Assembly: GCA_000697335.1 (NCBI GenBank)
Contig: JNEM01011672.1
Coordinates: 1 to 54,373 of the forward strand
Direction: 5' to 3'
Length of the DNA stretch: 54,373 bases
Source of the DNA: Conidiobolus incongruus B7586
Lineage: Eukaryota
In this document: positions 21,490-50,852 of the stretch, piece after piece
Numbering within the stretch: the stretch's first letter is position 1
Layout of the letters: each line of letters begins with the position of its first letter
The notes under the pieces: generated by a model
Databases searched by the model: none
Seen by the model: the letters and a program-made list of their open reading frames with translations, nothing else
Told to the model about the DNA's origin: nothing
Translations under genes and position numbers: made by a program

Positions 21490-23270
21490 TTAACTTAGAT
21501 ATCGCTCACAATTAAAATTGTCCAAATCCTGCATAGAGTCTAGAGATCCCAATGGAGTAAGCCCCAACCCCAATGTTGAAAGGCTGGCTCGATTGACTGT
21601 TAAATAGTGAGAGAGTGTGTTTCTAGCAGTATTGGCGTTTTGATTCATCTCAACATAACATTGAAGATGCTTGAAAGTCTTGCTTGATCAAGGTTATATA
21701 TGCAAATATCCACAATTACCACATGTTTTGCTTATATAATGCTTATCACAGATGATTAACTCGCACTAAAGGTATTCTCTTATTTGGTTGAGTAAGTATT
21801 ATTTAAATCTGTAATAAAACCATCTTAACATTACATTTATACTTTTACTCTCAATCCATTTACTAGCTTTTCTCCCCATTTTTTCAGTCTCCAATTAAAG
21901 TAAAATTATGCATTTTTTTATTAATCAATTTGCTAAGTTTCTTACATACCTTATCCAGAAGGTTTTGGATTTATTTTCTGATTTTGTAATATTTTCCTTA
22001 GTAGATTTCTTTAAGATTATCTGATTTATAACTTATTATAAGTAAAATAGAAACAATGAATTCTCTCAATATCTTTTTTACTCAAGTTACAATCTAATTA
22101 AAAAAGAGTAATTAGTTGTAAAAGATTATATGTTTGGATCAAAATCTAAAATTCTTTTTTTATATTTCACAAAAAAGCTTTATTATCTTAATTAATTTTT
22201 AGTGGTATCAAAATGTGTTCTTGAAGTTTAATAATAATAGAATAATATGGATATTTAATTTATATGTAGAGGAAGATAATATCAATTATGATTATTTAAT
22301 TTTATATTTGTAATTTTTAATAATTAGATTAATTAAAAATAATGAAATATCTTTATTATAAGTTTACATAAAAATATTAAGTTAATTCAACAATATAAGG
22401 TATTGGTATTAAGTTTACAATAATCAAAAAATAAATTATATAATACTTAAGGGTATAGTATTGAATAATTAAATATTTTAAAATATGAATTCAATATTAT
22501 ATATCAGTAAAATATGATTAAATGTGATAAAATGAACATAAAATAAATTCAAAACGAAATATATCACAATTAATATCTATAACAAATTTTATCATTTAAA
22601 GGTAATAACTATAATTGAGCTTTTCTGGAAATGGTCTAGTTGTTTGAATTAGCTTGCTATTAAAATAGGCATAGTGGAAAACATTTTTTATCTAGTAATT
22701 AAAATTAATAATAACTCAAATTAATTTTATATACTTTTATATTATATTATTTCTTGTGAGTGATAAAATTGGTCTTTATATTTTTAGGAAGTTGTGTATT
22801 GTTATGTTTAAATATAAGTAATTTCTAATACCAACTAGATTTCATCCTTTGAGCTTTTTATATTTACATATTTGATATTAGTTTTTTAATTTATTTTATT
22901 TACTCCTGTCAACCATTCTGAAATATTGATTATAAGTCTAGTTTATTACTCTAAACCGTTCTATCAATATATCTTCTTGTTAAGGTTTGGAAACAGCTTA
23001 ATTTTGTTTTTTTTCTATCAGTTTTTTGAAATTTTTTAATGTCTTTTTTTATGTTGTATTTTATTTTCTTCATTTTTGTATAATATATTTAATTAATCTT
23101 AGTTATAAAATAATTAGATATTTTAAAAAGTAATCTTTAAGTTCCCTTGTTAAATCATGCTTTTTGTGGATTTAACAAAACTATTAGTTATGTGATAGTT
23201 TTTTAAAGATGAACCTATGGAATTTAAATTGTTAACAACAATGTTTTTCAAAATAATAATAATTTTAGAG
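21490..23270 (-). pseudogene. Fanzor2 (IS607-TnpB-derived RNA-guided RuvC nuclease) pseudogene
   Basis: In order: KIKLFPN..ILIERFRVIN*TYNQ (~22925-23005); PFPEKLNY..*MIK (~22590-22640); RuvC-I ILDFDPNI*SFTTNYS (DP at 22135-22140); KDIERIH..YNKL*; IQNLLDKVCKKL; IILL*LETEKM..MLRWFYYRFK*YLLNQIREYL*CELIICDKHYISKTCGNCGYLH (TCGNCG 21709-21726); SKTFKHLQCYVEMNQNANTARN (21619-21648, ancestral DRDxNAARN). The 5' boundary is approximate. Confidence 0.88.
22216..22584. mobile_element. 369-bp AT-rich insertion interrupting Fanzor, solo-LTR-like
   Basis: Fanzor homology stops and resumes at its edges. Termini are TGTT...AACA (TGTTCTTGA vs TGTTATAGA inverted). No clean TSD. Confidence 0.4.
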
Positions 23271-23595
23271 AATAATCCGTTTATAAAATTTTTTAATAAA
23301 TATAAAAACTATTTGATTTGAGGCTAAATTTCAATCTAATATATCACACGATTTCATATTCGGGAAGCTTTTTTAAGGTGTTAATTTTGACGTTTCAAAG
23401 AGACTCTTGTATCGTAAGTTTCTAGGTCGGGCGTGGCTTTTTAGGTTGATTGAGAAGTTGTCAAATATTGGAAACTGGGTGAAACTTGAATTTACCTAAA
23501 GTTCATATGGTTTTAATCTTTTCTGTTCTATTCTAATGTTTAAGACTTGTTGATGAGATTGTAAAATATTGAATTTTAGAAGCAGGAATAATCAT
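23060..23595 (-). pseudogene. tnpA: IS607 TnpA (MerR-like HTH + serine recombinase) pseudogene
   Basis: IPASKIQYFTISSTSLKH*NRTEKIKTI*TLG (HTH; cf. S..TLRRW...GKIKTIRTPG); YDTRVSLKRQ (catalytic YARVS-like, 23399-23416); PEYEIV (23347-23364); FINGLFSKIII, FIFKKL, RELKDYFL..NYFITKIN (C-terminal helix, ~23090-23147). Confidence 0.75.
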
Positions 23596-24822
23596 ATTTG
23601 CTCATATTTGACTGAAGACGGTAATAGTGTATTTGCTGCTGTACTTTTTGAAATTAAACATTATTGTAAAACAATAACCAAAAATCTGTGTTGCAAGTGA
23701 TAGTTTATCTCGGCCTTAATTAAATATTGATAGGCGTGCTCAGAATCATTGGAAGTTTCGGGAATGGTTAAAGAATTTAAATGGGTTCATAATTGAAAAA
23801 TAAATTTTATTTAAGCTTGATAGTTGAGAAGCAGTAAATTTAAAATATTTTTAACATACGATTGTTAAATTTAATGTTATATATGATTTAAAAAGAATAT
23901 GAGAATATTTATTAATATCTCTCTGATTAATTTACTAGAATTTTTTTCCAACATGAGCAACCAAATATCATTATACCATGAATATATTCTATTTTAAAAT
24001 ACCATATGATGAGTATTAACATATCAACTACTAAAAGATTCTAATTTTGCCATATTTAAATTACACAACATGAAGCCAAATATTTATCAGCTAGAGTTTG
24101 TAAAAATTATCACTATATATTTAAAAACCTCTGGTAGTTTATTTAGATCATAAATATACCTCAATATTAGATTCAATCCAAATGAAATTAGAAATATTTA
24201 GTTTAATTAATAAAAATTCTCTTACATATATTATTTCATTATATTTAATTAATTGCACTTCAAATAATTGCCACATTATCTATAAAATTATATCATTTGA
24301 AATTAGCAATATAAGTTCAATGTTGAATTGTGATTACTAAACTTCGAGAAAATATCATCTGACTCAGTATCCCTATCTTTTTAATATCCTGATTAATCTA
24401 TTATTCTCTCAAAATTCAGTCCCAACTTATTTTTAATATTGTGTGTTGTAGTTATATAACAATAATATTATTTATTGATATGGTATACTCTAATTTCATC
24501 GAACTAAATTCTAAGTTTACTAAACTTTATTAGTAATAATTCAAGTCTAATCGAAGTATTAAGAATATATAGTTAATACCTCTATATTTTCCAATTTTTT
24601 CGTAATTCAACATGTAAAGACTCATACTTTTTATTTGGCAAGGTTGATTTTTAATAGCAGATATCATTTAAAAAATTTCCCAAATAATTTTATAATGGAC
24701 TGTTCTTAAGACCTCAAATATCAATCCCATAATTAAAATAAATAACCACATTGATTATATATGGATGATTTCAACTTTGGGAATAATATAAAAAAAACAA
24801 AATAATAATAATTATTATAAAT

Positions 24823-31588: not shown

Positions 31589-33232
31589 CTATTTATATTT
31601 GTGATCAAATTTAACCAAACTATCTATATACTTCATAAACTCTAAAACCTTTTCATCACTCGATTTCTTACCCACGATTTGAACACCAATAGGTAAACCT
31701 GCCATTTCTTTACTATTATAAAATGAATAACATAATTTTTGCGCCCAATAACCTCTATTATAATCCTTAGGTAATTTCTCTTTCAGCCATTGATTGACAT
31801 TATCCATTCGATCCAAATCAGCATCAACTTTAGTCACAGGAATAACACCACTTGGATAATTGTATAAATTAAAGATCATACAGGGCCACAGCGACGGACT
31901 GATAGCAATGAAGGTATCGTGTTTTTGGGGTGGTGATACAGAAACAGGACATATTAATACATCCATTTGATGGCCATCTTTCTCCCCAGTTTTGATCCAA
32001 GCATCCAAAGTTTCTTTCGCCAATTGATTCTTTTGCTCTTGATAATTCCATAACTTGGCAACAGTTGGCAGGATTGAAAAGGTCAATAAATCGCTATATG
32101 TCTTCTGTCCCAAGAAATTTGCCAGTGCATACTGCAAACATTTCTTGACAAAGTTTGGAATTTGAAGGACTCTAACTAATGGTGAGATTAAGGAAGTATA
32201 CGATTCAGACCAAGTCATAAATCGCTTTGCATTATCTAAGCCATCCGATACTAAGATAGCTCCAGCTAATTTGTACGCTTCAGCTGCTCCAGGTATCTTG
32301 AATTCAAATACTTCATGTCCCTCTTTCTTCAATAATTCAACCACTTCTAACACCGCTCGTTCACATACTGGAGTCGAAGGGAATACACCATTGCTGACAA
32401 TATATCCAATCTTATAACGTTTCTCTTTAGTAAATTGAAATGGTTCATATGGTGTTTTAGTGCTGTCACTATCAATTTCCCAAGGTTTTAACTGAATAAC
32501 ATGACGGAATACAGCTGCAAGGTCATCCACACTTCTACCCATAGGCCCTGGAGAAGTCAAAATCGAATCTTGGCCCGAAGAGAATCGAAAGTGACCAGCC
32601 ATTGGAAATCGTCCAGCAGTTGGTTTGAACGAATAGATCCCGCAGTAACTCGCAGGAATTCTCAAGCTACTTCCTGAATCACTACCGATTCCCAAAATGG
32701 AGCCTCTCGCACCGATTAGAGCACCCTCACCGCCACTACTTCCACCACAAGTAAACTCAGGATTATAAGGGTTCTTAGTGACACCAAACACTGGATTAGA
32801 GGTCTCAGTAGTCAATCCAAATTGAGGTACATTAGTTTTACAATAGGGAATACATCCCAACTGTCTCAACAATGCAACAATTGTAGCATCTTCTTGTTGA
32901 TCAACCTCTCCTAACCTCTGATAACCGCCCCAAGTTGGCCAATTTTTAACATGGAAGGAATCTTTCACTGATAGCGGAACTCCCAGAAAAGGATACTCGG
33001 ATTCAGGAAATGAAATCCCAGCTTGAATATCGATATCCAAACGTTCAGCGGCTTCTAACGCCTCCTGTTCCTTCAGAAGAATTACACTGTTGGTAAATGC
33101 GTTAGCCCGTTCCGTCATCTGAATCACTGTTTCCATCACTTTTTTAGCAGTCCAATTCCTCGAGCGGATTTTGTTAGCTACTTCTAAAGCTGATAGTTCT
33201 TGAATTTCTTCAATTGAATTTTGATTTTTCAT
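31589..33232 (-). CDS. Amidase-signature family enzyme (FAAH/acetamidase-like), copy 1, intronless
   Basis: GVPLSVKD (Lys), KTNVPQ, GGSSGGE (cis-Ser), GSDSGSSLRIPA (Ser nucleophile), GLPIGVQIVG. Confidence 0.93.
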   Translation of the reverse strand: MKNQNSIEEIQELSALEVANKIRSRNWTAKKVMETVIQMTERANAFTNSVILLKEQEALEAAERLDIDIQAGISFPESEYPFLGVPLSVKDSFHVKNWPTWGGYQRLGEVDQQEDATIVALLRQLGCIPYCKTNVPQFGLTTETSNPVFGVTKNPYNPEFTCGGSSGGEGALIGARGSILGIGSDSGSSLRIPASYCGIYSFKPTAGRFPMAGHFRFSSGQDSILTSPGPMGRSVDDLAAVFRHVIQLKPWEIDSDSTKTPYEPFQFTKEKRYKIGYIVSNGVFPSTPVCERAVLEVVELLKKEGHEVFEFKIPGAAEAYKLAGAILVSDGLDNAKRFMTWSESYTSLISPLVRVLQIPNFVKKCLQYALANFLGQKTYSDLLTFSILPTVAKLWNYQEQKNQLAKETLDAWIKTGEKDGHQMDVLICPVSVSPPQKHDTFIAISPSLWPCMIFNLYNYPSGVIPVTKVDADLDRMDNVNQWLKEKLPKDYNRGYWAQKLCYSFYNSKEMAGLPIGVQIVGKKSSDEKVLEFMKYIDSLVKFDHKYK

Positions 33233-34210: not shown

Positions 34211-35782
34211 TATAATATCAAAACATCAATATACCTCATAGTAATTTAGGTTCTTTCATATTCGGATTCTGTGCCTACAATTCGAATTCCTATTAATAAC
34301 ACAGTCATTTAATTAATATCATAAAGTGAATACCATAAAATCTGTGCCCAAGCTCCTCCTTTATAATTTTTTGCAACTTCTACGACCATTGGTCAGTCTC
34401 ATTCAATCTGTTTAAATTAGCTTCTACTCTAGTCACAAGAATCGCTTCACTGGAATAGTTGAGCATATTTAAATTCATGATAGGCTGGAGACATGGACTA
34501 ACCTAAATGAAATTGTTATACTTTTAAGGAAGCAATACGACTGCAGGCAATATTTAAATATCCTTCCCATTACCATCAAGGCCTGTGTTATTCCAAGCAC
34601 CCAAAGATTGTTTTGCTCTTGATGGTTCCTCAATTCGACAACGTATAGGGGTACTACAAAGTTGAAAATATCACTTAAAGCCTTTTCCAGAAATACTGGC
34701 AAGAACCAAATAAAAACTTTGAATCACCAAATTCAGAATTTCAAAGCTTCTAATGAGTACAACTTTCACTCAGAAGTATGGCTCATTCCATTCCACGAAT
34801 TATTTTGCATTTTCTAGATCATGTACAGCTAGAATTGATGCCGCTAACCTATAGGCATTAGCCATTCCAGGTAAATTAAATTCAAATACTTCACGACAAT
34901 GACTTCTCAATAATTTGACTACCAAATCTGCTCATTCACAAGCAGGAGTTGCAAAAATAGTTGATTATTTACAACACATCCAATCTTATTGTGTCTATTT
35001 TAGATAACTCCAATTGTCTGTAAAGAATTTTAATTGACTCGCGATTTATTTTTCAAGGTTCAGACTTAAGCATATTTCGAAATGCTGTCTCTAAATAGTC
35101 AGCACTCTTCCTCATTAGACCTGGTACCGTAAGTGTCGACTCTTGACCTGAGAGATAATTGTGATTACCAGTTATTGGGAATTTTCCAGGAGTTTGTTTC
35201 AATGAATAGCTCTCACAAAAACTACCTGGGATTCCCAGGCTACTTCTTCAGTCGCTTCCGATTTCGAGAATAGGACTGTGAGCTCTAACTAATGCTCATT
35301 CACTGTCACTGCTCTCTCCACTGGTAAATGCAGGATTATATGGATTATTGGTAGCGCCAAATACAGGATTAGCAGTTTCAGTTGATAAACCAAATTGAGG
35401 GACATTAGTTTTGCAGTATGGGATACATCCTAATTTTTTAACACTATGGCCAAAATAGCATTTTCTTTTTGCACCACTTCTCCCAACTTGCGATATACCG
35501 TTCAAATTGGCCAACCTTGGAATGGAGCATCAAAAAATGAATGCTCAGCTTCTAAGAATGAAAAACTAGCTTTAATAACAATGTCTAAGTGTTCAGAAGC
35601 TTCCAAAGCCTCCTGCTGCTTTAACAGAATCACATTGTTGCTCAATTCGCGAGCTCGTTTTAGTATCTTTATCACTTTCTCTATTACCTGCTTCGCAGCA
35701 CATTCTTCAGAGCGAACCTTGTTACCCTCTTTCAAAGCTGCAATCGCTTGAATTTCTTCTTCAATAGCATTATATTTATGCA
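34211..35782 (-). pseudogene. Amidase pseudogene (full-length, frameshifts and stops)
   Basis: Colinear fragments EEEIQAIAAL..QEALEASE, LGCIPYCKTNVPQFGLSTETANPVFG, GSD*RSSLGIP, EVFEFNLPG, GIRIVG..MRYID. Confidence 0.9.
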
Positions 35783-36897
35783 TAGTAGACAAACAATTTA
35801 TTTCATAATTGTTGTAAGAATACTAGACTTATAAAATTAACTCGAAACAATTTTTTATTTATTTCATCATGTGACTGGATTTGACTACAAATAATTTACT
35901 CAAAAAAATTTTGTATTCCAGAAAAAATTATTGTATATTTATAAAATTAATGAATTCAAATTAATTGAATATATGTTCCTAATAACCAAAGCAATATTAA
36001 TCATACTATACATGTTTAATTTTTGCAAATAATATGAATTTTATATTTGAAACTGAACAATATCAAAATAATATTATGAGCAGGGAAATGCACAAAGAAT
36101 AATTAAATATAATCAATATATTCCTTATTTAATTATGTCAATATCAATATTACATATTAAATATTTAATATTATTAACTCAATTATACTAATAAAATTGA
36201 ACAAAATATTTTAATTAGTGGTCAATGGAAAATAATATATTTTTTTAAAGTTAGACTTGTAGATTTAAATTTAACAAATCACTATAATTTCTAATTATTT
36301 ATATATAACAATATTTCATTTTACTTTGAGTATCATATATTTAATTGATTCAAAAATATTACTACATTTTTTAACAGCATTTTTATTGGATATGATAAAA
36401 ATTCTTGTTGAAATAGTTCAAATGAATAATCTATGTTATATTTACATCATCAATTTACTTATCTTTCAATATTATAATTATACGTTTGAATTAAATTTTA
36501 ATTATGATATTTCAGAAATCATGTTTCAGTTATATATATTATTTGACGCTTATTTTAAAAAAATCATAAAATTTTTATAATTATTAATTAATCTTTTACT
36601 TATTATTGATTTATAAAGCATTTTTTTGATTAGATATCAAATATTTAAAATTCAAAATATAATTATTATAATACAATTGGATGAATTTAAGTTATGTAGC
36701 ATGAAATTTAAGGTTTAACTAAGTAGATATCAATTTATATAAACATTTGCAGTATCAATGAAAATGTATTTTTTGTAATAGTTGTCATATGTGGAAGCAG
36801 TGATATTTTTCGATAAGAATATTGATATTTTTATTTTTAACCAAGAGTTATATATGGATATAAATCATTGCATTAATCAAAAGTTCAGCTAATTTGG

Positions 36898-38541
36898 TTA
36901 TTTGATTTGATGAGTTTTAATCAAACCATCAATGTATTTCATAAATTCTAGCACCTTTTCATCCTCTGATTTTTTGGCAGCAACTTGAATCCCAATTGGA
37001 AGTCCTGCCATTTCTTTGCTATTATAAAACGAATAACATAATTTTTGGGCCCAAGTTCCTCCATTATAATCTTTAGGTAATTTCTCTTTGAGCCATTCAT
37101 CCACGTTATCTAATCTATCTAAGTCAGGATCTACTTTAGTTACTGGGATCACACCACTAGGATAGTTCAGCAAGTTGAAAATCATGCAGGGCCAAAGGGT
37201 TGGACTAATGTACATGAAAGTATTGTGCTTCTGAGGAGGCATTGCGCTAACGGGACATATTAAAACATCCATTTGATGACCATCTTCCTCTCCTGTCTTA
37301 GTCCAAGCTTTAAGTGCTTGTATACTCAAATCATTTTTCCTCTCTTGGTAATTCCAGAGTGTGGTGACAGAAGGTAGATTTGAAAAACCCAAAATATCAC
37401 CTAAAGTGTGTTGTCCAAGGATATTAGTGAACAAAAATTGTAATCCTCTAGCAATAAAGTTGGGAATTTGGAGAGTTCTAACAACAGGTGCGGTTAATGC
37501 CGAATAAGTCTCATACCACCCCATGTGCCTTTTAGCGTTTTCTAAACCGTCAGCAAGTAAAATACGACTGGTTATCTGATAAGCATCGGTAATTCCAGGT
37601 AAATCAAACTCAAAAACTTCATGACCTTGATTCCTTAATAATTCAACTACTTCTAAAACTGCTCTCTCACAAGATGGAGTCGCTGGAAAAAGATTGTTAT
37701 TTACCATATATCCAATTTTGAATTTTTGGTCTTTTTTAAGGGTGTATGGATCGTATGGAGTCTTGGTACAATAGCCATCAAATTTCCAAGGTTGAGATTT
37801 GATCACATATCGAAACATAGCTTCAACATCCTCAACACTTTTTCCCATAGGGCCTGACGTAAAATTGATTGAATCCTGACCCGACATAATTGACATTTGA
37901 CCGTAATTTGGAAATCTTCCAGGAGTAGGTTTGAATGAATAAATTCCACAAAAACTAGCTGGGACTCTCAAACTACCACCAATATCACTTCCAATACCTA
38001 ATACCGATCCTTGGGCTCCAATTAAAGCTGCTTCACCACCACTGCTACCACCAGAAGTAAAATTAGGATTGAATGGATTCGTAGTGGTCCCAAATACAGG
38101 ATTGGCAGTTTCAGTTGCTAAACCAAATTGAGGGACATTAGTTTTGCAGTATGGGATACATCCTAACTTTTTCAAAACCGTTACAATAGTAGCTTCCTCT
38201 TCTTGTACTACTTTGCCAGCTTTTTTGTAACCACCCCAAGTAGGCCAGCCTTTGACATGAAAGAAATCTTTAACAGATATAGGAACACCCAAAAATGGAT
38301 ATTCTTTCTCAGGGAACTCTTCTCCAGCTTTAATTCTGCTATCCAGACCTTCTGCGGCTTTCATGGCTTCTTTGTCTTGCCAAAGTACGACACTATTAGT
38401 GAAATCTTGTGCTTGTTTTGATAACTGGATGACAGTTGCCATGACTTGTGTTGCAGTCCACTTTTTAGAACGAATATTTTTAGCTATTTCCAAAGCTGAA
38501 CTCTTTTGAATCTCATCTTCGATTAAATTCACCATTGTCAT
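36898..38541 (-). CDS. Amidase-signature family enzyme, copy 2, intronless
   Basis: GVPISVKD, GGSSGGE, GSDIGGSLRVPA; 547 aa. Confidence 0.93.
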   Translation of the reverse strand: MTMVNLIEDEIQKSSALEIAKNIRSKKWTATQVMATVIQLSKQAQDFTNSVVLWQDKEAMKAAEGLDSRIKAGEEFPEKEYPFLGVPISVKDFFHVKGWPTWGGYKKAGKVVQEEEATIVTVLKKLGCIPYCKTNVPQFGLATETANPVFGTTTNPFNPNFTSGGSSGGEAALIGAQGSVLGIGSDIGGSLRVPASFCGIYSFKPTPGRFPNYGQMSIMSGQDSINFTSGPMGKSVEDVEAMFRYVIKSQPWKFDGYCTKTPYDPYTLKKDQKFKIGYMVNNNLFPATPSCERAVLEVVELLRNQGHEVFEFDLPGITDAYQITSRILLADGLENAKRHMGWYETYSALTAPVVRTLQIPNFIARGLQFLFTNILGQHTLGDILGFSNLPSVTTLWNYQERKNDLSIQALKAWTKTGEEDGHQMDVLICPVSAMPPQKHNTFMYISPTLWPCMIFNLLNYPSGVIPVTKVDPDLDRLDNVDEWLKEKLPKDYNGGTWAQKLCYSFYNSKEMAGLPIGIQVAAKKSEDEKVLEFMKYIDGLIKTHQIK

Positions 38542-39171
38542 AATATTTAAATTAATTTTAAATTTTAAAATTTTGTATTATAATTTTTTTTTATAAAATT
38601 TTATTAAAATTTTAAAAAGATTTAATATTTATATAAAAAAATAGATGACGTATTAAATAACTCATTATCAAATTAAAATACACTATTTGAGTCATTCAAT
38701 TAAAATTGCATAGATATTTCTATTTTGAGATTGTGTCATTATTATTAATCAGTGTTTTTATTTGCATATAACTTTATTTGTTATTCAAATTTATATTAAT
38801 TCATCATTTTCCTAGAAATTATTTAAATTATACTAAAAATAGAAGAAGGAATAATATATTTTCCGTAATACAAATTTTATAATAAATGGAATTATTAGGA
38901 TGGAATTAGTACTTGGTTAAAAATATAAGAACTTTTTTTTGAAAAAATATTAATATAAATTTATTACTAAAATTTTGTTTAATTGATATTAATATAATAT
39001 ATTCTTTTGGAAGTATAAATATTTTAAAATGTTCCATTTGATCAACTAACCTGGTTCAATAGTGTTATTTTGAATGATTATTTTAATTGACTAAAATTAT
39101 TATTATATTATTGACAATTGTTATTTGAATTGATTGAAAATATATTTAATAAAAATATTAATAAAATAATA

Positions 39172-40487
39172 TTACTCTGCATTTTTAATAATGGGAATTT
39201 TTTGCAATTAAAAATAAATAAACATTTGAATATATGATATATAAAAATAAATATATAATATAAATTTAATAGTTTCTTTTATTATTAATAATTTTTTGCT
39301 ATACTTTTAGCAAACTTCTAACACTTAAAAAACAGTTCTTTTTATTAAAGACTAAAATTTAATGTTTCACAAACCAATTAAATTTTCCTGCAGAAATTTT
39401 CTTTCCTACAAGCTGGTTTTTTAATTGCCTAAAGCAATTATAATTACATAGGTTATAATCAAAAGAATATACTAGATGTGGTAGTTTTTTCTAGTTATTT
39501 TTAATTAGAAAGTTTTTTACAACTTTAGATTTATGTATTTTGCAATTATCATGCAAAATAATAAGTCTTCTCAAATTATATTAAAAACACTAATTAGAAA
39601 TACTTTTATTTAAAAAAACAATATATAGTTTACTATTAATTAATTTTCTTTCAAGAACTAAATAAGAATAGCATATACTATTATAATCTATTGTAATAAT
39701 TAATATTCACTTATTAACAAAGTGTTTATTTAAAGGGATTTGTGGAAAAGGTTAATTTAACTTAATCTAACATTTTGATTTGTGTTTTAGTAAAGGATTA
39801 TACATAAAAATCTAAGATTCATTAATTGTAATTATTTACTGTAAAAGTTTAAGCTTCTAGTAATATTTTAATAAGTTTTGTTTAGTAATAGCTACTCTAG
39901 CTTTTTTTTAAGCTTTAGTTAAATTATAAGGTACCTATTTTACATTTTTATTTATTAATTTTAGTTTAAACTTTAAAATATATAAAATACTTGTAAAACT
40001 AATATTAAAATGCTTAGATAATTCTCTAGTTGAAATAAAAAAGTGCTTTTCAATATATTTTTTCACTTTATTTACAATTAAAAGAGTAATAGTTAAAGTT
40101 AGTCTTTTAGATTTTAACAGGTTTTAAATAGTTTCTTTTTTAGCTTTAAAGTAATTTACCCAACAATAAATTGTTGATTTAAATAATACTTCATTACCAA
40201 AAGCTGCTTGTAAATTTTAAATAATTTTAGAGGGTTTATGGTTAAGTTTTACTAATACTAAAATAAAAAACTTTTGATGATTACTATTTGGTTTAAGTAT
40301 AATTAAATTAAACAACCAATTTTAAAAAGTTAATTTTTTAATCAAAAAAACTAATATATATATATATATATATATTAAAAATATATAATTTCCTATTAAC
40401 TTTGTATATATTTATTCATTTCAAACTAATAATATGTTTGAAAAATTAGAAATTAAAAAATTTCCCATTATTTCAAATTCAAGGTAA
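39172..40487 (-). mobile_element. Degenerate mariner (DD34D) DNA transposon, copy A, 1316 bp
   Basis: Flanking TA at 39170-39171 and 40488-40489. Imperfect TIRs TTACTCTGCATTTTTAATAATGGGAA / TTACCTTGAATTTGAAATAATGGGAA. Dead transposase ~39266-40300 with K*VPYNLT (WVPH), IITINES* (D1), LHDN (D2) and PHLVYSFDYNLCN (YSPD..CD, D3); 34 residues lie between D2 and D3. Confidence 0.93.
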
Positions 40488-40689
40488 TACTATAATAATG
40501 TAAAATTAATTACCATATTTGATTGTTATTTAATATTTAAAAAATTAAAATGAATAATATTCAAAATTATATAATTGAATTTTAATTATATATTATAAAA
40601 CTATATTTGGTATTTATTAAAATAATAATATCATAAATATTTATATTTGAAATAGATAATTATCAATTCATAATTTGTTTAATTTGCTA

Positions 40690-42333
40690 TTATTTGTTCT
40701 GATGGGCTTTAACTAATTCATCAATATACTTCATAAACTCTAATACCTTTTCATCTTCAGATTTTTTACCTACAACCTGAATACCAATTGGTAGTCCAGC
40801 CATCTCCTTGCTATCGTAAAATGAATAACAAATCTTCTGACCCCAAGTCCCTCCATTGTAATCCTTAGGTAATTTCTCTTTCAACCATTGGTCTACATTG
40901 TCTAATCTATCTAAGTCGGCATCAACTTTGGTAACTGGAATAACACCACTAGGATAGTTGAGCAAGTTGAAAATCATGCATGGCCAAAGGGTTGGGCTGA
41001 CAAACATAAAGGTATTGTGCTTTTGAGGTGGTAATGCGCTTACAGGACAAATCAAGATATCCATTGGACGCTCGTAATCATTTCCAGTTTTGTTCCATGC
41101 TTCATGTGCTTGAATACTGAGGTAGTTCTTTTCTTCTTGATAATTCCAAAGCTTAGTAACAGATGGAAGATCGGTAATGCCGACAATTTCACTAAGTGTC
41201 TTTTGGCCAAATACCTTATCAAGCAAAAATTGTAAACCTTTGGTTATAAAGTTAGGAGTCTGAATAGTTCGAATTACAGGAGCAGTTAATACTGAATAAG
41301 TTTCATACCATCCCATGAAGCTTTTAGCATTTTCCAAACCATCAGCAAGCAAAACGCGAGAAGATAATCTATAAGCATCAGTTGCTCCAGGTAAATCAAA
41401 TTCAAACACATCATGACCTTGCTTTCTTAATAATTCAACTACCTCTAAGACTGCTCTTTCGCAAGCTGGAGAAGAGGGGAAGAGTTTATTGTTGACAATG
41501 TATCCAATTCTGAATTTTTGATTTTTATTGAGTCTGTATGGCTCATATGGAGTCTTGGTACAATAGCCATCATGCTTCCAGGGCTGTGATTTGATTACAT
41601 ACCTAAACATTGCCTCAACATCCTCAGCACTCTTTCCCATAGGTCCTGAAGATGTATGGATTGAATCCTGACCTGACATAATTACCATATGACCATAAAT
41701 AGGAAATCTTCCAGGAGTAGGTTTGAATGAATAAATTCCACAAAAACTAGCTGGGACTCTCAAACTACCACCAATATCACTTCCAATACCTAATACCGAT
41801 CCTTGGGCTCCAATTAAAGCTGCTTCGCCACCACTACTGCCTCCACACGTAAATTTAGGATTAACTGGATTCGTAGTGGTCCCAAATACAGGATTGGCAG
41901 TTTCAGTTGATAAACCAAATTGAGGGACATTAGTTTTGCAATATGGGATACAACCCGCTTTTCTCATAAGAGTAACGATAACAGCTTCTTCTTCCTGAAT
42001 TACTTGACCAGCTTTGTGATAACCACCCCAAGTAGGCCAACCTTTTACATGGAGGAAATCCTTAACAGATATAGGAACACCCAAAAATGGATATTCTTTC
42101 TCAGGGAACTCTTCTCCAGCTTTAATTCTGTTATCTAAATCAAATGCAGCTTTCATGGCTTCTTTTTCTTGCAAAAGTACCACACTATTCGTCAATTCTT
42201 GAGCCTGCTTTGTCAATTCGATCACAGCTTCCATGACCTCAGTAGCAGTCCATTTTTTGGAACGAATGTTATTGGCTATATCCAATGCTGAGCTAATTTT
42301 AATTTCATCTTGAATTAAATTTCCTTCGGTCAT
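40690..42333 (-). CDS. Amidase-signature family enzyme, copy 3, intronless
   Basis: GVPISVKD, GGSSGGE, GSDIGGSLRVPA; 547 aa. Confidence 0.93.
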   Translation of the reverse strand: MTEGNLIQDEIKISSALDIANNIRSKKWTATEVMEAVIELTKQAQELTNSVVLLQEKEAMKAAFDLDNRIKAGEEFPEKEYPFLGVPISVKDFLHVKGWPTWGGYHKAGQVIQEEEAVIVTLMRKAGCIPYCKTNVPQFGLSTETANPVFGTTTNPVNPKFTCGGSSGGEAALIGAQGSVLGIGSDIGGSLRVPASFCGIYSFKPTPGRFPIYGHMVIMSGQDSIHTSSGPMGKSAEDVEAMFRYVIKSQPWKHDGYCTKTPYEPYRLNKNQKFRIGYIVNNKLFPSSPACERAVLEVVELLRKQGHDVFEFDLPGATDAYRLSSRVLLADGLENAKSFMGWYETYSVLTAPVIRTIQTPNFITKGLQFLLDKVFGQKTLSEIVGITDLPSVTKLWNYQEEKNYLSIQAHEAWNKTGNDYERPMDILICPVSALPPQKHNTFMFVSPTLWPCMIFNLLNYPSGVIPVTKVDADLDRLDNVDQWLKEKLPKDYNGGTWGQKICYSFYDSKEMAGLPIGIQVVGKKSEDEKVLEFMKYIDELVKAHQNK

Positions 42334-44259
42334 AATATTATTAAATATAAATATATATAACCTATATTACAATTTTGAATTTCAAACAAAAAAATTTTTT
42401 CTTGAGAAGTTTAGATTTTTTTTAAAAAAAAAAGAAATAAAAAAGAAATCTACACTATTTATACTATTTTATTATTAAATTTACTTTTTATCCAATATGG
42501 TATTTTAATACTTGTTATTACTAATCACAAATCCATAATATCCATTTGGCTTTATTTGTTTGTTCATTTTAATGCTCAATAAAACATTTCCCTTAATTCA
42601 TATATTGGTAAATGGAGTCGGGTAAAGTTTATTAAATTTTTTATCCTAAATTTTAAAATTTTAATTAAATTGAAATTTAAAGATGATCTTATTATTATTA
42701 TTATTATTATTTAAATTAAACTTTTATAGGTTTCAGTAAAGTATGTAAAAATATAAAAATTCACTTATCTCAAATATTATTATGTATTAAATGAGACTGC
42801 TCTTATTTAATTCTTTTATTCAAACTTATTTAATTAGGGATTAATTAATTAAACTATAGAATACAATTTAAATGTCTATAATCAAATAATCTAAATCATT
42901 AAATTGGAATAATATAACTAATCGGTCATTTTAACTATTTCTATAAGTACTTATAAATTAGGAAATTGAACATAAATATCCTTATATATATTTAATTTAA
43001 ATAATATTTAAAATGATAAATTGAATAAACATAAAATTTCAGTAAAATTAAATCATATTATTACTTCTTTTATAAATAATTAAAAGTTTATTATGATTTA
43101 TTTTAATTTATATAAAACTTAAATAATTTAATAATATAAATAATTTTTTAATGTATAGGTTAATTATAATAATTTTACTGAATAATTTTATTAATATATA
43201 TAAATTAAAATGATTAGACTTAATAAATTTTAATTTATGCTTTAATATAATATATAAAAATTTTATGAATTTTTATAACTTTAAAATAAATAAAAAAATA
43301 CACTAAAAATAAATTAAATTTTAAATATTATCTATGGTTTGATTTTATGCATAATAAGTCAAAGAGCATACTTATAACTATTTCATACTAATTCAATTAT
43401 GATATGAAGTTTAAATAATTTTAATACTTATAACAAATAACTAATAATATTATAATTAATATTAAAGTATAATTTTGAAAATGAAAAATAATATGAAAAT
43501 AAAATTTATATATAATAAAAATTTCGGATAAAATATCGGTTATTAATATATTTATTTAGTTGTACAAATTTAATTTTAATTGAAATTATTTATATTAATT
43601 TTAAAATTTTAAAAATAAAAATTTTAATGAAAAAAAGAATTTTTTTTTATAAAATATATACTTTATAATTATTATGCAAATAATAAAATAGTTGAAATTA
43701 ATTAGTAGATAATTTACAGTCATTTCTTAATTTTGGTATTGGTAATTATGTTATATACTGTAATTTTGATTGATAGTATCAAATTTAATCTACGAATTTC
43801 GGATCTTATTAATATATATACTCATATCAAAAGTAATGTTTAATCTGACATAAATTTAATCAAATTTATAAACTCTCTAATACTGAATGCAATTAACATT
43901 TTAAGATGATATATTGCATATTGTTATAAACATTTTTGTTCAAGCTATTGAATTAAACTAACAATAAAATTATCTTAATAATGATAAATATTTGATATTA
44001 TTTTTATACTCTATTGTTTCAATTATATTTCAAATATCATAGAACTCTAGCTAATTGCTTAATTAATTCAATGTTTATATAATGAATATAACTAACTAAA
44101 TAATATCTTATTTTGTTCAAAACTTTATTTCTATATCAAATTTTTAGTTTCAATTAAAATAAAAATTTATTGGTTATTAAAATCAAAGATCAAATTTCTT
44201 AATATTATTGAAGTATTAAAAAACTATATATTAATAAACTAATTATTGTGTGGGATGTA

Positions 44260-45526
44260 TTACTTTGTAATTTAAATAATGGGAATTTTTTGTGATTGAA
44301 AATAAATAAACATTTTGATATATGATATATAAAAATGAATATATAATATAAATTTAATAGTTTCTTTTATTATTAATAACTTTTTGCTTTACTTTTAATA
44401 AACTTTTAATACTTAAAAAATAATTCTTTTTATTAAAGACTAAAATTTGATGTTTTATAAACTAATTAAATTTTCCTACAAGCTAGTTTTTTAATTACTT
44501 AAAATAATTATTATTATATAAGTTAAAATCTAAAGAATATATTAGATATGATAGTTTTTTCTAATTATTTTTAATTAAAAAGTTTTTTATAACTTTAAAT
44601 TTATGTATTTTATAATTATCATGTAAAATAATAAGTTTTATTGAATTATATTAAGAATACTAATTAAAAATAGTTTTATTTAAAAAAAATATAAAGTTTA
44701 TTATTAATTAATTTTTTTCAAAATTAAATAAGAATAACATATGTTATTATAATTTACTACAATAATTAACATTTACTTATTAATAAAGTATTTATTTAAA
44801 GGAATTTATAAGGGGAGTTGATTTAATTTAATCTAACACTTTAATTTATATTTTAGCAAAAGATTATACAAAAGAATTTAAAATTTATTAATTATAATAA
44901 TTTATTATAAAAGCTTTAGTTTCTAATTATACCTTAGTAAATTTTATTTAATAATAATTACTCCAACTTTTTTTAAGTTTTAATTAAATTATAAGGTATT
45001 TATTTTATATTTTTATTAATTAATTTTAATTTAAATTTTAATATATATAATATACTTATGTAATTAATATTAAAGTATCTTAATAATTCTTTAACTAAAA
45101 TAAAAAGGTATTTTTTAATATAATTCTCTACTTTATTAATAATTAAAAAAGTAACAATTAAAATTAGTTTTTTAGATTTTTATAGTTTTTAAGTAATTTT
45201 TTTTCTTAATTTTAAATTAATTTACTTAATAATAAATTATTAATTTAGATAATATTTCATTATTAAAAGATACTTATAAATTTTAAATGATTTTAAAGGG
45301 TTTATAGTTAAGTTTTACTAATATTAAAATAAAAAACTTTTAATAATTACTATTTGGTTTAAGCATAATTAAATTAAATAACCAATTTTAAAAAATTATA
45401 ATATATATATAATTCAAAACTATTAATTTTCCTATTTATTTTGTATATATTTTTTTATTTGAAACTAATAATATATTTGAAAAATCAGAAATTAAATAAT
45501 TTCCCATTTTTTTAATTCTATAGTAA
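44260..45526 (-). mobile_element. Degenerate mariner (DD34D) DNA transposon, copy B, 1267 bp
   Basis: Colinear direct repeat of copy A with TA flanks at 44258-44259 and 45527-45528. Same TIR core (AATAATGGGAA..TTCCCATT). ATG retained at 45364-45366. More AT-shifted than copy A. Confidence 0.92.
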
Positions 45527-48500
45527 TAATTAGATTATTTAAAATAAAACATTATATTAAAATTATAAATTATGAAATCTAATTACTTATGCTTATTATT
45601 AAAATAATTTTATAAGTTCAAATACAGGTATTTTAATCTATCTATATAATAAATTAATTTGATATATACTTAATTATCAAGGAAATATTGTTATAAATTT
45701 GATAATTAAAAATTTAAGTTTAAAACAATAAAATATATAATTTATGGTAATTAAATTTAAAAAATTTACAATCTAAAATAATTTAATTATAAAGAATAAT
45801 TTAAAGATAATTAGTATGATTCCAAATAAAATATTATATTATTATAAATCAAATTAAATTACCATATATAATGGTTTTTTCTGGATTTTTTAGTTTTCAA
45901 ATAAAGTTTATAATTATATTAATTATATTAATTATATAACTTTGATTCAACTTTCAATTCTTAATTTTTAAAAATTAAACTAAATAAAATTTAAAAAAAA
46001 GAAGTTTATTAATAAAAGAGAAGTTAATTATAATAATTAATATTTTAAAATACTATATTATTAAATTTCGTTTAAAATTTAGCTAAATATAAAAATCAAT
46101 ATTAATTTATAATCTGTTTTGATTAATGAATAACATTATAATCCTAATATATCCTATTTATTAAATTGATGTTTTAAATATGTTATGTTTAAATGATCTT
46201 ATTTTTTATTATATATATAGGTTTAAAATCAATTATTTTTATAGATAAAATTAGGATATTTTTCAAAAAGTAACAAATAATTAGTGCAAAAATATAAATT
46301 CAAAACAAACACACTTTATTTCAATATTTTACCAATTATATTCAAATTCAATTATTTATATATTTATATTACTATATCTAAATATTTTTACTTTGTTTTA
46401 TTATTTAAATTTCAGATAATCTAAAATAAAGCAAAAAGATTTTTAATTAATATTAGTCTATTGGGGTTTATCAATTGATATTCACTAGAATTATTAAAAT
46501 TTTAAATTTTAATAACTATTCAAGCATTGTGCTGGATATGCTAAAAATTTAAATAAAAATGAGAATTTAATTTGGTTACATGTAAAATAAGTTGGGTATT
46601 TATTCTAAAAAGAACTATTAGAAATCAGTTTTATTAATAAATGAAATAGAGTAATCTTATTCAAACGTGTAAATCAGAAGAAATTGTAAGGATCTTAAAT
46701 GAAGTATAGACCATATGCTCATTTATTTATATATGTAAAATTTTATTAATTATTTGATAGGGAATGAATACTTTTATAAATTTAAATTATCGGGAAAAAG
46801 AATGGTGGATAACAATTAGATTAATAATTTTTCAAAATCCATAAATTTATAATATTATATTAACTTAGAAATTGAAAAAAAAAGATTCAATTCTTTTTTC
46901 TTTTTATAAAAAAATTTACAATTTTCAACTTATATATTTAAGAAGTATTTGAGGTGTTCATATTGTAACTAAAAAAATATAAAATATTAGAATTGATTAA
47001 ATTAATCGAAAACCCAAATTATTAAATTTTCTAATTATTTTTCTATATCTCCACTTTTGGATACCTTTTATAATTTTCATATGAAATTTTATTGGGTTTA
47101 TTTTTATATATTATAATTATAATTTATAGTTTTAAAATCAGCTCTTTCGATTCTTTTATATAATACACGAATTATTAAACACTAATTAATTAGTAAAATT
47201 AACACTCGAAATATTGAAATTGGAATTTTTTTCATAAAATAATAATTAACATAAATGATAGCATTAAAATGCTTAATACTTCACTAATTGTTTAATTTTA
47301 AATTATTTGAATCTATAATATTAATTATTAATTAAATACATATTATATAATACCAATTTCCAATTTTTATCAATTCCATTTAATACAAATATAAATAATA
47401 CCATAAATAAAAATTAATATAGTATATATATTATTCATTAAAACCTTTTGAAGTTAATATTATAATTAATTATAGTCTAATTTAAATAATTGATATATTG
47501 AAAATTTGAATAATATAAAATAGTTAATAACTTACCTACTAAATTCAGGAAATATATATCCAGCTATAAGTGATAGTATTGGTTAGAAATTTTTAATATT
47601 AAAATTATATAGTTTAATTTATGTTGTTTTTAATAATTAGAAGTAATATTAATTATGCGTTTTAATTAATATTAAATAATAGTAAAAAATGAATTGATTG
47701 GTATATAGTTGTAAAAGTTAGGAAATTGACATTAGAGGAATTAAAAGTTAATTCCAAAAAAATTGAGTTTAAATTAAAATAAAAACAAATATAAAAAATT
47801 AATCAATTTTTTGAACAAATAAGGAAGAGGTTCAGCAATGGAGAAGTTTAATTCAAGATAGAACCATTTCTTTATAAATTAAAAATATAAACAAGGTTTA
47901 AATTATTCATCTTCTGGAGTAGTTGATAAACTTTGTTCATTTTATGGTCAGATGATATATATATATAAGTATACTAAATTCTCAATTATTTAAATTTTAT
48001 TACAAGAAATTTAAACTTATACTAATAAAATTATTAAAAATAAAAATTAAATCTTTTAATTACAAAATGATTAAAATATTATAATATTAAGAAATATATT
48101 TAAATTTTAATCAAATAATGATATTGCAGATTAGATGCATTTTCAAAATGAGATATAGTTAGTCAAAAGAAAATGCCAGGTATTGGGTATTGTATTGATA
48201 CAGATTTAGAATATTTCAAATTTTGCATAAATAACTGATATATTTGAAATCGATTAATCCATAAAAGTATTTTATTAATTTGTATTATATATACTTTTTA
48301 AATATTTAATATATGTTATAATTAATCTCTAATAATTTAGTTAGTTTCACAATGTTAACTGTTAATTATTCTAAATCATGTTTCCTTATGTAATGTTCTA
48401 GTAAAAGTGAAATTTTAAAATTAAAATAAATTTATTTTAATATTTAAATTATATTGATAATTTGTATTATATATAAGCTTTTATTTACTATCAATGCAAT

Positions 48501-50233: not shown

Positions 50234-50235
<2 letters not shown>

Positions 50236-50266
<31 letters not shown>
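50236..50266. repeat. (TAT)n microsatellite
   Basis: About 10 tandem TAT units. Shorter (TAT)n tracts lie near 42690 and 52647, and a (TA)n tract near 40355. Confidence 0.85.
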
Positions 50267-50267
<1 letters not shown>

Positions 50268-50798
50268 CATAGTATTTATCTATTAAACAATCAACTATTA
50301 TTAGTTTTATTGACTAAATAATTATACAATGAAAATTCAAATATAATAAATTAAACAAACAATTGAATTTATATTTTAAACAATGGTCAATTGTAAGTAA
50401 TAAATGCTTTGTTATTTGAACCAAGTAAGGGAAATTTTACACCGATGAGAATTTATCCACTATAGTTTGAATTCAATTCCGAATAACAGCCAAAACCCTC
50501 ATTATTTTTTTTTCGTTAAAAATAATTTTGTTTATCCAAGAAATCAATTTTCTTCTTAATTAGCACTTATAATAATATATCAATAAATAAACTATAGTAA
50601 ATTTAATAAATTATAAATAATTTGTTCTAAGTGAGGATAATTAAAAATCCCCAGTAAAATTGAAAGGGTTGCACAATAACAATTTAAGTGGTTCAGTGAC
50701 TAGTTACGGATGAATCTTCGAAAATTTACTAAATGTCAATAAATAGAATCAGAACAGGTGTTACGTTTAATTGGGATAGTAAGGGAAATAAAAGAAAA

Positions 50799-50806
50799 TA
50801 TATAAA
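50799..50806 (+). promoter_or_regulatory. Putative TATA box of the GPCR gene
   Basis: TATATAAA about 50 bp upstream of ATG 50853. Weak evidence in AT-rich DNA. Confidence 0.35.
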
Positions 50807-50852
50807 TACTCTGCATTAATCTTAATATTCTTAAACTTTTTATTTGGTGATC

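What the first reader, a model, noticed from the sequence alone, without database searches (positions are those of the whole stretch)
39172..45526. RIP-like C>T/G>A hypermutation of transposons in a probable early-diverging fungus
Seen: differences between the two mariner copies, and between all three elements and their family motifs, are mostly transitions toward A/T on both strands. Mariner examples are TGG>TAG and CAT>TAT in WVPH (39926-39940), GAT>AAT at D1 and D3, and CAA>TAA. Fanzor examples are the inferred DRD>AAT CAA AAC and GVR>AAC ATA TAA. Many sites are CpA/TpG, but CpG, CpT and CpC are also hit. Element edges (TIR GGG/CCC, the TnpA 5' part, the Fanzor tail) keep G+C while interiors are stripped. 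Mariner copy A has kept its ~345-codon length, so substitutions far outpace indels. The amidase paralogs and pseudogene next door show no such AT shift. Established: RIP is best characterised in Ascomycota and needs RID/DIM-2 methyltransferases. Inference: a repeat-targeted mutator or methylation-driven deamination acts here, possibly a distinct genome-defence system.
Basis: partly seen in the sequence, partly recalled or inferred. Interest (0 to 1): 0.75.

Follow-up and report, generated by a model that had tools for sequence, protein, structure and literature searches.

The report
Transposon-only C-to-T hypermutation, Conidiobolus-like fungus
Two dead mariner transposons in a fungus related to Conidiobolus have lost most of their cytosines to C-to-T change, a pattern absent from neighbouring genes, a pseudogene and equally AT-rich spacer DNA. 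It likely reflects a repeat-directed mutation defence so far firmly documented only in ascomycete fungi.

Summary
Mariner copies A (39172-40487) and B (44260-45526) differ at 202 of 1271 aligned sites: 161 transitions and 41 transversions, mostly G:C in A against A:T in B. Conserved codons of 89 homologues and thousands of other family copies in the organism's own sequencing runs both show the direction is G:C to A:T.

It is not general AT drift:
- Only the 5 of 107 one-kb windows that overlap the mariners have a positive composite RIP index.
- 17 other equally AT-rich windows, three amidase paralogues and an amidase pseudogene do not.
- Loss depends on the 3' neighbour: CpA 63%, CpT 39%, CpC 22% (pooled); no CpG is left.
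- Against an A<->T transversion clock, these transitions run about 9 times faster than at four-fold sites next door.

The host is a Conidiobolus relative (47-64% protein identity, shared synteny), not an ascomycete.

My best reading is a RIP-like, methyltransferase-type mutator acting on high-copy repeats (0.45). The main rival is methylation followed by slow deamination (0.3). Enzymes and 5mC could not be tested because no genome is held.

The Fanzor/TnpB relic lies at about 21.6-23.7 kb, outside the stated coordinates, and shows only a weak signature. Index-only hints exist for Entomophthorales (eLife 2024). This scan noted similar cases in other early-diverging fungi.

The parts
39172..40487 (-). 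Mariner relic, copy A (1316 bp). TA target-site duplications at 39170-39171 and 40488-40489. Inverted ends of about 30 nt. Transposase relic at roughly 39268-40320, in one frame, with 21 stops.
   Evidence: phmmer found 1207 hits; the best has E=2.4e-34 and hits are ~350-aa proteins. The top hits carry Transposase_1/DDE_3/HTH_48. GC 17.9%, no CpG, composite RIP index +0.38.
44260..45526 (-). Mariner relic, copy B (1267 bp). TA duplications at 44258-44259 and 45527-45528. More decayed than A, with 5 indels relative to A.
   Evidence: GC 11.2%, no CpG, composite RIP index +0.54.
40690..42333 (-). Intact amidase gene (paralogue 4), 200 bp from mariner A. Used as an unmutated control.
   Evidence: 547-aa ORF with Pfam Amidase E=5e-98. 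GC 38.0%, RIP index -0.70.
36898..38541 (-). Intact amidase gene (paralogue 3), 81% nt identity to paralogue 4. Used as a control.
34216..35760 (-). Amidase pseudogene (frame-shifted pieces). Used as a control for decay of non-transposon DNA.
   Evidence: tblastn pieces fall in different frames. GC 36.4%, RIP index -0.66. Ti 138 / Tv 92 and no CpA bias.
31589..33232 (-). Intact amidase gene (paralogue 1). Used as an outgroup in the controls.
21550..23700 (-). TnpB/Fanzor-like relic, full of stops.
   Evidence: Pfam Cas12f1-like_TNB E=1.9e-5 at about 21619-21816; NCBIfam IS607_TnpB E=0.05. No PDB sequence match. Interior RIP index -0.09 to +0.05 against a window median of -0.45.

Best explanation
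The two mariner relics carry C-to-T/G-to-A hypermutation that is confined to the transposon, and this was likely made by a RIP-like process in which a DNA-methyltransferase-type activity would convert cytosines of high-copy repeats to thymine.

Shown:
- The changes run G:C to A:T on both strands.
- They depend on the 3' neighbour: CpG is exhausted, then CpA > CpT > CpC. They do not depend consistently on the 5' neighbour.
- They run about 9 times faster, relative to A<->T transversions, than at neighbouring near-neutral sites.
- The family has thousands of diverged copies.
- Unique AT-rich DNA, tandem amidase genes and a pseudogene lack the pattern.

Inferred:
- That the trigger is repetitiveness or transposon identity.
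- That the agent is a cytosine methyltransferase relative.
- That it acts in bursts, for example around zygospore formation, rather than as slow decay.
For: Spectrum: Ti 161 / Tv 41, with 120 of the transitions being G:C in A against A:T in B.

Polarity from conserved codons: at 42 columns conserved in 89 homologues, inferred changes are G>A 11, C>T 7, other 5 in A, and G>A 16, C>T 11, other 6 in B, with about 0 A/T>G/C.

Polarity from the family: 16.5-21 thousand contig pieces at least 80% alike were laid on copy A. In run X1, of 239 variable places 220 are transitions. 127 of 202 G/C places carry T/A variants, against 13 of 859 A/T places with A<->T variants. In 33 of the 36 best-supported A>G or T>C rows, the family majority by depth holds G/C where copy A has A/T.

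Context:
- C in A, T in B: CpA 56/78, CpT 58/113, CpC 6/27.
- C in B, T in A: CpA 18/39, CpT 18/80, CpC 4/18.
- Pooled CpA vs CpT p=6e-5; CpA vs CpC p=3e-6.
- 5' neighbour: flat in the A-to-B direction (0.46-0.62).

No CpG in either copy, against a background observed/expected ratio of about 0.5.

RIP indices: (CpA+TpG)/(ApC+GpT) is 0.83 in A and 0.61 in B, against 1.19-1.48 elsewhere. TpA/ApT is 1.21 and 1.14, against 0.72-0.96 elsewhere. The composite index is above 0 in 5 of 107 windows, and all five overlap the mariners.

Rate: transitions at G/C-bearing sites relative to A<->T transversions are 28 (95% CI 20-43) in the mariner pair, against 3.0 (1.8-5.3) at 177 four-fold sites of amidase paralogues 3 and 4.
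Against: - Three tandem amidase paralogues (69-81% nt identity) are intact, and the pseudogene shows no such spectrum. A Neurospora-style trigger acting on any duplication should have hit them.
- Ti/Tv of 3.9 with 41 transversions and 6 indels is modest for classic RIP and fits slow accumulation.
- Complete loss of CpG points to ordinary CG methylation as at least one component.
- Some 'CpA' events may be former CpG sites.
- Only one family, and two related copies, could be aligned base by base. A two-copy 'de-mutated' ancestor still has index +0.27, so part of the composition may be inherited.
- No strand-coordinated runs were seen.
- A family with thousands of copies shows the defence is not efficient.
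- RID is reported only from Pezizomycotina (PMC5751038, passages read). A kingdom-wide k-mer screen found repeat-enriched signatures only in Ascomycota (PMC12543289, abstract and section 9 read).
- No DNMT gene and no 5mC could be examined.
Confidence: 0.45

Rival explanations
1. Methylation and slow decay. The transposon copies would be silenced by cytosine methylation (CG maintenance plus CpA/CpT methylation), and 5-methylcytosine would deaminate spontaneously over long times, with no dedicated mutator and no pairing of repeats.
For: - CpG is completely gone from both copies, against a background observed/expected ratio of about 0.5.
- Tandem gene duplicates and the pseudogene are spared, as expected if the target is silenced transposons rather than any duplication.
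- The more decayed copy B also has more indels, 5 against 1, which fits age.
- The roughly 9-fold rate excess lies within what 5mC deamination gives at mammalian CpG sites (recalled, not from a call).
- 5mC is enriched on DNA transposons in another early-diverging fungus, Rhizopus microsporus (PMC12019607, passages read).
Against: - CpA/TpG is depleted (0.89 and 0.65), not enriched as CpG decay alone would give.
- 46-72% of CpA and 23-51% of CpT cytosines are lost. This would need very high, lasting non-CG methylation, whereas reported 5mC levels in early-diverging fungi are low (0.34% in R. microsporus, same paper).
Confidence: 0.3
2. General AT-biased neutral drift. Any dead sequence in this 26%-GC genome would decay in the same way.
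For: - Spacer DNA is 10-19% GC.
- Copy B at 11% GC is close to that level.
- G:C-to-A:T bias is universal (general knowledge).
Against: - AT-rich non-mariner DNA has CpA/TpG at or above expectation (1.04-1.21) and a negative RIP index in all 17 windows.
- Four-fold sites have Ti 30 / Tv 41, with A<->T the most common change.
- The pseudogene has Ti/Tv 1.5 and no CpA bias.
- The rate ratio is 28 against 3.0.
Confidence: 0.07
3. A single-strand cytidine deaminase (AID/APOBEC-like), or error-prone repair tied to transposition, would edit the element.
For: The change is C-to-T only and confined to a mobile element.
Against: - There is no consistent 5'-neighbour preference. It is flat at 0.46-0.62 in the A-to-B direction, although 5' A is lower in the smaller B-to-A set (13/65) and in the 36 family-polarised sites (2/36). 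The 3' neighbour matters strongly in both directions.
- Both strands are hit equally (C>T 61, G>A 59), with no strand-coordinated runs (66 runs against 60.9 expected).
- Cut-and-paste mariners have no long single-stranded stage (general knowledge).
Confidence: 0.08
4. Inherited composition. The founder mariner already had this odd dinucleotide make-up, and subfamily structure mimics recurrent mutation.
For: The two-copy reconstructed ancestor still has RIP index +0.27. Many contig pieces are 95-99% like copy A, so mutated copies may have been amplified.
Against: - The context bias is measured on differences between the copies, in both directions.
- The index rises from ancestor +0.27 to A +0.39 to B +0.55.
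- Conserved codons show G>A and C>T damage, including stops from TGG.
Confidence: 0.05

Closest known systems
Repeat-induced point mutation (RIP) of Neurospora crassa and other Pezizomycotina (RID-dependent)
   Same: - G:C-to-A:T transitions on both strands, confined to a repeated element.
- 3'-neighbour ranking CpA > CpT > CpC.
- TpA/ApT raised and (CpA+TpG)/(ApC+GpT) lowered, giving a positive composite index.
- Stops created in the transposase.
   Different: - The host is a Conidiobolus relative, not an ascomycete.
- CpA is favoured over CpT by only about 1.8-fold in rate.
- CpG is the most depleted class, whereas in Neurospora it ranks low (recalled).
- Tandem gene paralogues are spared.
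- The family still has thousands of copies.
- Ti/Tv is only 3.9.
- RID, and timing in the sexual cycle, were not testable.
Dual CpA+CpT and CpG+CpA signatures of transposon copies in Botrytis, Sclerotinia, Magnaporthe and Tuber (Amselem et al. 2015, PMC4352252; abstract and section 12 read)
   Same: More than one dinucleotide is targeted: CpA with CpT, or CpG with CpA.
   Different: Those species are ascomycetes with a RID/Masc1-like gene. Here the lineage is outside Dikarya and the gene content is unknown.
CpG-only hypermutation of transposons in Microbotryum and rust fungi (Masc2/Dnmt1 class IIA; same paper)
   Same: CpG is wiped out in transposon copies.
   Different: That signature is CpG-only and should enrich TpG/CpA. 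Here CpA and CpT cytosines are lost as well, and CpA/TpG is depleted.
Composite-RIP-index signal reported for Entomophthorales (Stajich et al. 2024, PMC11105155; passages read)
   Same: Same fungal subphylum and the same index. 24.2% of Zoophthora radicans windows and 2.4-5.7% in three other species are positive. The authors suggest RIP may act outside Dikarya.
   Different: That report is index-only, with stated caveats. Here there is an alignment-based spectrum, polarity, dinucleotide context, and local controls from unique DNA, in a Conidiobolus-like genome.

Membership tests
RIP (Neurospora-type) | C:G-to-T:A transitions dominate in repeated DNA | tested here: met
   Ti 161 / Tv 41. Polarity from codons is 18 of 23 changes in A and 27 of 33 in B. 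In the family, 220 of 239 variable places are transitions.
RIP (Neurospora-type) | Preference for cytosines followed by A (CpA to TpA) | tested here: met
   CpA 74/117, CpT 76/193, CpC 10/45 pooled; p=6e-5 and 3e-6. The preference is weaker than recalled for Neurospora, and CpG is exhausted.
RIP (Neurospora-type) | Any duplicated sequence is hit; unique DNA is spared | tested here: inconclusive
   Only the mariner windows have a positive index (5 of 107), and the family is highly repeated. But tandem amidase paralogues at 69-81% identity and the pseudogene are not hit.
RIP (Neurospora-type) | Depends on a RID/Masc1-class methyltransferase | not testable with these tools
   No genome is held for this window.
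RIP (Neurospora-type) | Acts between fertilisation and meiosis | not testable with these tools
   Needs crosses or zygospore passages.
RIP (Neurospora-type) | Host in Pezizomycotina, the only group with documented RID | tested here: not met
   Best matches are Conidiobolus coronatus at 64% and 47% identity, with shared gene neighbourhood.
5mC deamination at CpG (Masc2/Dnmt1-type decay) | CpG depleted, with a matching gain of TpG/CpA | tested here: not met
   CpG count is 0 in both copies, but CpA/TpG is depleted to 0.89 and 0.65 against 1.04-1.21 in the background.
AID/APOBEC-type editing | 5'-neighbour motif and strand-coordinated clusters | tested here: not met
   The 5' neighbour is flat at 0.46-0.62 in the A-to-B direction. 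5' A is lower in the smaller B-to-A set (13/65) and in the 36 family-polarised sites (2/36), but no consistent motif emerges. Runs: 66 against 60.9 expected.
Tc1/mariner transposon (mariner, DD34D) | TA duplication, short inverted ends, HTH plus DDE transposase of about 345 aa with 34 residues between the second and third catalytic positions | tested here: met
   TA flanks and inverted ends. 1207 phmmer hits, the best at 2.4e-34. Top hits carry Transposase_1/DDE_3/HTH_48. Catalytic columns fall at residues 226, 317 and 352. The relic itself is below Pfam cut-offs.
TnpB/Fanzor RNA-guided nuclease | RuvC motifs plus a zinc-ribbon (TNB) domain | tested here: inconclusive
   Cas12f1-like_TNB at 25.2 bits against a cutoff of 26.3; IS607_TnpB E=0.05. 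No PDB match. The RuvC motif readings are by eye and from recall.

The most novel reading that the evidence does not exclude
Entomophthoralean fungi run a RID-independent, repeat-directed cytosine mutator. It ranks targets CpG/CpA > CpT > CpC and is gated by copy number or transposon silencing rather than by mere duplication, so tandem gene families survive. This would be a genome defence distinct from ascomycete RIP, either older than Dikarya or evolved convergently.
Probability: 0.3. Interest if true: 0.8.

Novelty: new variant of a known kind. Interest (0 to 1): 0.6.

Why it matters
RIP is the best-known fungal genome defence, and its reach beyond ascomycetes is disputed. An index-based study suggested it in Entomophthorales (PMC11105155). 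A kingdom-wide k-mer screen found repeat-enriched signatures only in Ascomycota (PMC12543289).

This window gives base-level evidence with local controls that a transposon family in a Conidiobolus-like fungus has undergone context-dependent C-to-T hypermutation that unique DNA escaped.

If a dedicated mechanism lies behind it, two things follow:
- It dates repeat-directed mutagenesis to before Dikarya, or shows it arose twice.
- It shows a form that tolerates gene duplication, which classic RIP does not.

It also gives a concrete system for testing which methyltransferase does the work: a very high-copy mariner in a likely culturable fungus.

Tried and rejected
- Whole genome: not held. No search for RID, DIM-2, DNMT1, DNMT5 or deaminases was possible.
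- Word-indexed protein search with the read-through mariner translation: no hit. The exhaustive phmmer search then worked.
I laid 39280-40340 beside them, as the tool advised.
- Read-laying output: only 40 of 248 variable places are printed, so family-wide context could be counted on 36 sites only (CpT 18, CpA 16, CpC 2, CpG 0; same rank order as the pair after normalising, not significant).
- Two exact-pattern scans of metagenome contigs for other copies: no match.
- 42340-44256, first taken for the Fanzor: no Pfam hit in six frames, index -0.24.
- PDB sequence search with the TnpB-like relic: nothing.
- Strand-run test for single-strand bursts: not significant.
- Earlier notes of this scan, by place, relatives and sequence: nothing for this genome.
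- Bewick et al. 2019 on fungal DNMTs: not held, so DNMT content of Zoopagomycota is not cited from it.
- The pseudogene is a weak neutral control, because most of its divergence probably predates its death. Four-fold sites may feel codon selection.
Full report
WHAT IS THERE

The window is AT-rich eukaryotic DNA at 26% GC: genes are about 37-39% GC and spacers 10-19%. Two copies of one ~1.3-kb element lie 5.1 kb apart on the minus strand, copy A at 39172-40487 and copy B at 44260-45526. Each is flanked by TA and has ~30-nt inverted ends that keep a GGG/CCC core. The flanks do not align, so these are separate insertions.

Read through its 21 stops, copy A gives one frame of about 340 codons. An exhaustive phmmer search with it finds 1207 proteins, the best at E=2.4e-34, mostly about 350 aa at 25-35% identity. 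The five top hits scanned carry Transposase_1, DDE_3 and (three of five) HTH_48 of Mos1. The relic itself is below Pfam cut-offs (HTH_48 E=0.0027, DDE_3 E=0.019). The catalytic columns fall at residues 226, 317 and 352, which is a DD34D spacing. These are mariner relics.

THE HOST

Two genes were used to place the host.
- The amidase next to copy A matches Conidiobolus coronatus at 64% identity. The next matches are at 38% or lower.
- An F-box/WD40 gene at 26304-27350 has only two strong matches: 55% to an unnamed JGI protein and 47% to C. coronatus. Each lies on the same contig as the corresponding amidase match.

The organism is therefore an entomophthoralean relative of Conidiobolus, an early-diverging fungus and not an ascomycete.

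THE OBSERVATION

A and B differ at 202 of 1271 compared columns: C>T 61, G>A 59, A>G 21, T>C 20, and 41 transversions of all kinds. GC is 17.9% in A and 11.2% in B. There are 6 indel events.

POLARITY

Two independent lines show the direction is G:C to A:T.

(i) Conserved codons. At 42 columns where 89 homologues of 330-400 aa agree at 75% or more, the cheapest codon paths were counted.

| Copy | Unchanged codons | G>A | C>T | Other | A/T>G/C |
|---|---|---|---|---|---|
| A | 25 | 11 | 7 | 5 | 0 |
| B | 20 | 16 | 11 | 6 | 0.5 |

(ii) Other copies in the organism's own runs. Four public runs of one sample hold 72-81% of the window's words. Laying their contigs on 39280-40340 at 80% or more likeness placed 16,508-21,353 pieces per run, so the family has thousands of diverged copies. 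The four runs are one sample and are not independent.

In X1, 239 places vary at 5% or more share:
- A>G 58, T>C 35, C>T 61, G>A 66, transversions 19.
- That stretch has 202 G/C and 859 A/T letters.
- So 127 of 202 G/C places carry T/A variants, 93 of 859 A/T places carry G/C variants, and only 13 of 859 carry A<->T variants.

Of the 40 best-supported rows printed, 36 are A>G or T>C. By my reading of the X1 columns, the G/C letter holds more than half of the summed depth in 33 of those 36. Copy A has therefore lost G/C that most of the family keeps. Two caveats apply: the 5% threshold favours frequent changes, and depth is not copy number.

IS IT JUST AT DRIFT?

No, on four counts.

(1) Dinucleotides.

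| Measure | Mariner A | Mariner B | Other stretches examined (incl. AT-rich spacer classes, 14-17% GC) |
|---|---|---|---|
| (CpA+TpG)/(ApC+GpT) | 0.83 | 0.61 | 1.19-1.48 |
| TpA/ApT | 1.21 | 1.14 | 0.72-0.96 |

In 1-kb windows stepped by 500 bp, the composite index is above 0 in 5 of 107. All five overlap the mariners, and the 17 other windows below 20% GC are all negative.

(2) Context.

| 3' neighbour | C in A, T in B | C in B, T in A |
|---|---|---|
| CpA | 56/78 | 18/39 |
| CpT | 58/113 | 18/80 |
| CpC | 6/27 | 4/18 |

Pooled, CpA vs CpT gives p=6e-5 and CpA vs CpC gives p=3e-6. The 5' neighbour matters little in the A-to-B direction (0.46-0.62). 5' A is lower in the smaller B-to-A set (13/65).

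Neither copy has a single CpG. With background observed/expected near 0.53 I would expect about 5.6 and 2.1 (arithmetic).

(3) Controls next door.
- Pseudogene lineage, at 967 columns where the three intact amidase paralogues agree: Ti 138 / Tv 92. G:C>A:T is 0.20 per site against A:T>G:C 0.11. There is no CpA preference (CpA 11/67, CpC 18/76, CpT 9/46).
- Paralogues 3 and 4: Ti 172 / Tv 140 overall. At 177 four-fold sites, Ti 30 / Tv 41, with A<->T the most common change.

(4) Rate. Transitions at G/C-bearing sites, relative to A<->T transversions at A/T sites, are 28 (bootstrap 95% CI 20-43) in the mariner pair against 3.0 (1.8-5.3) at the four-fold sites. That is roughly a nine-fold excess.

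CAVEATS ON THE CONTROLS

- The pseudogene probably died recently, so most of its changes arose under selection.
- Four-fold sites may feel codon selection.
- Some 'CpA' events may be former CpG sites hit on both strands.
- A two-copy reconstruction still has index +0.27, against +0.39 in A and +0.55 in B. Part of the composition may therefore be older than these two insertions.
- Only one family could be examined base by base.

THE THIRD ELEMENT

The read-through frame there gives:
- Pfam Cas12f1-like_TNB, E=1.9e-5 (25.2 bits, cutoff 26.3).
- NCBIfam IS607_TnpB, E=0.05.
- No PDB match.

Its interior has an index of -0.09 to +0.05, between the window median (-0.45) and the mariners. Its 3' tail is ordinary at -0.65. 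This is suggestive but weak. 42340-44256 has no recognisable protein relic.

MECHANISM

A strong 3'-neighbour dependence with no consistent 5' dependence, equal damage to both strands (61 vs 59), and no strand runs (66 vs 60.9 expected) together fit an enzyme that reads the cytosine and its 3' base. Cytosine methyltransferase relatives do this. Single-strand deaminases do not (family knowledge, recalled).

Two readings remain.
- A RIP-like active mutator on repeats fits the CpA > CpT > CpC ranking and the size of the non-CG loss.
- Methylation followed by slow spontaneous deamination fits the total loss of CpG, the survival of tandem amidase genes, the modest Ti/Tv, and the greater indel load of the more decayed copy.

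I put 0.45 on the first and 0.30 on the second. Either way, the sparing of gene duplicates means the trigger is not mere duplication as in Neurospora.

WHAT IS KNOWN

- Stajich et al. 2024 (PMC11105155, passages read) computed the composite index in Entomophthorales. It was 24.2% of windows in Zoophthora radicans and 2.4-5.7% in three others. They suggested RIP may act outside Dikarya, with caveats, and found two-domain DNA-methylase proteins distantly sister to RID.
- Badet and Croll 2025 (PMC12543289, abstract and section 9 read) found repeat-enriched k-mer signatures only in Ascomycota.
- Amselem et al. 2015 (PMC4352252, abstract and section 12 read) tie CpA (with or without CpT) signatures to RID/Masc1, and CpG-only signatures to Masc2-type Dnmt1.
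- Muszewska et al. 2017 (PMC5751038, passages read) report RID only in Pezizomycotina and Tc1/mariner in C. coronatus.
- My searches for 'repeat-induced point mutation' with 'Entomophthor', and 'repeat-induced point' with 'Conidiobolus', found no alignment-based report for this group.
- This scan's earlier notes describe similar patterns in other early-diverging fungi. They are unchecked here.

VERDICT

The enzyme, the trigger and the timing are untested. I rate it a new variant of a known kind, with interest 0.6.

Noticed in passing
window 21550-23700 (-): A TnpB/Fanzor-like relic full of stops. It has a near-threshold Cas12f1-like TNB zinc-ribbon hit and a weak IS607_TnpB hit. Its interior is AT-stripped with an intermediate RIP index, and its 3' tail keeps 32% GC.
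   Followed up: partly
window 31589-42333 (-): A tandem family of four amidase-signature genes: three intact 547-aa paralogues (69-81% nt identity) and one frame-shifted pseudogene at about 34216-35760. Mariner A is inserted 200 bp downstream of the last copy.
   Followed up: partly
window 26304-27350 and 40690-42333: The amidase and the F-box/WD40 gene have their best matches on one and the same contig, both in Conidiobolus coronatus and in an unnamed JGI genome. The gene neighbourhood is therefore conserved across these fungi.
   Followed up: partly
window 42340-50800: An 8.5-kb stretch at 10-19% GC with no ORF of 90 aa or more. It holds mariner B. Outside the mariner its RIP index is negative, so it does not look like fully decayed RIP relics.
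   Followed up: partly
window 39280-40340 (runs X1-X4): The mariner family is very abundant in the organism's own reads: 16.5-21 thousand contig pieces per run at 80% or more likeness. More than a hundred deletion joints were also reported (15 listed, 103 more not shown), which suggests many internally deleted copies.
   Followed up: partly
window 40355-40378: A (TA)n microsatellite and about 27 extra bases are present in mariner A but absent from copy B.
   Followed up: no
window 50844-51938 (+): A 364-aa ORF with several hydrophobic segments (it looks like a multi-pass membrane protein) and no Pfam match at E<=0.001.
   Followed up: no
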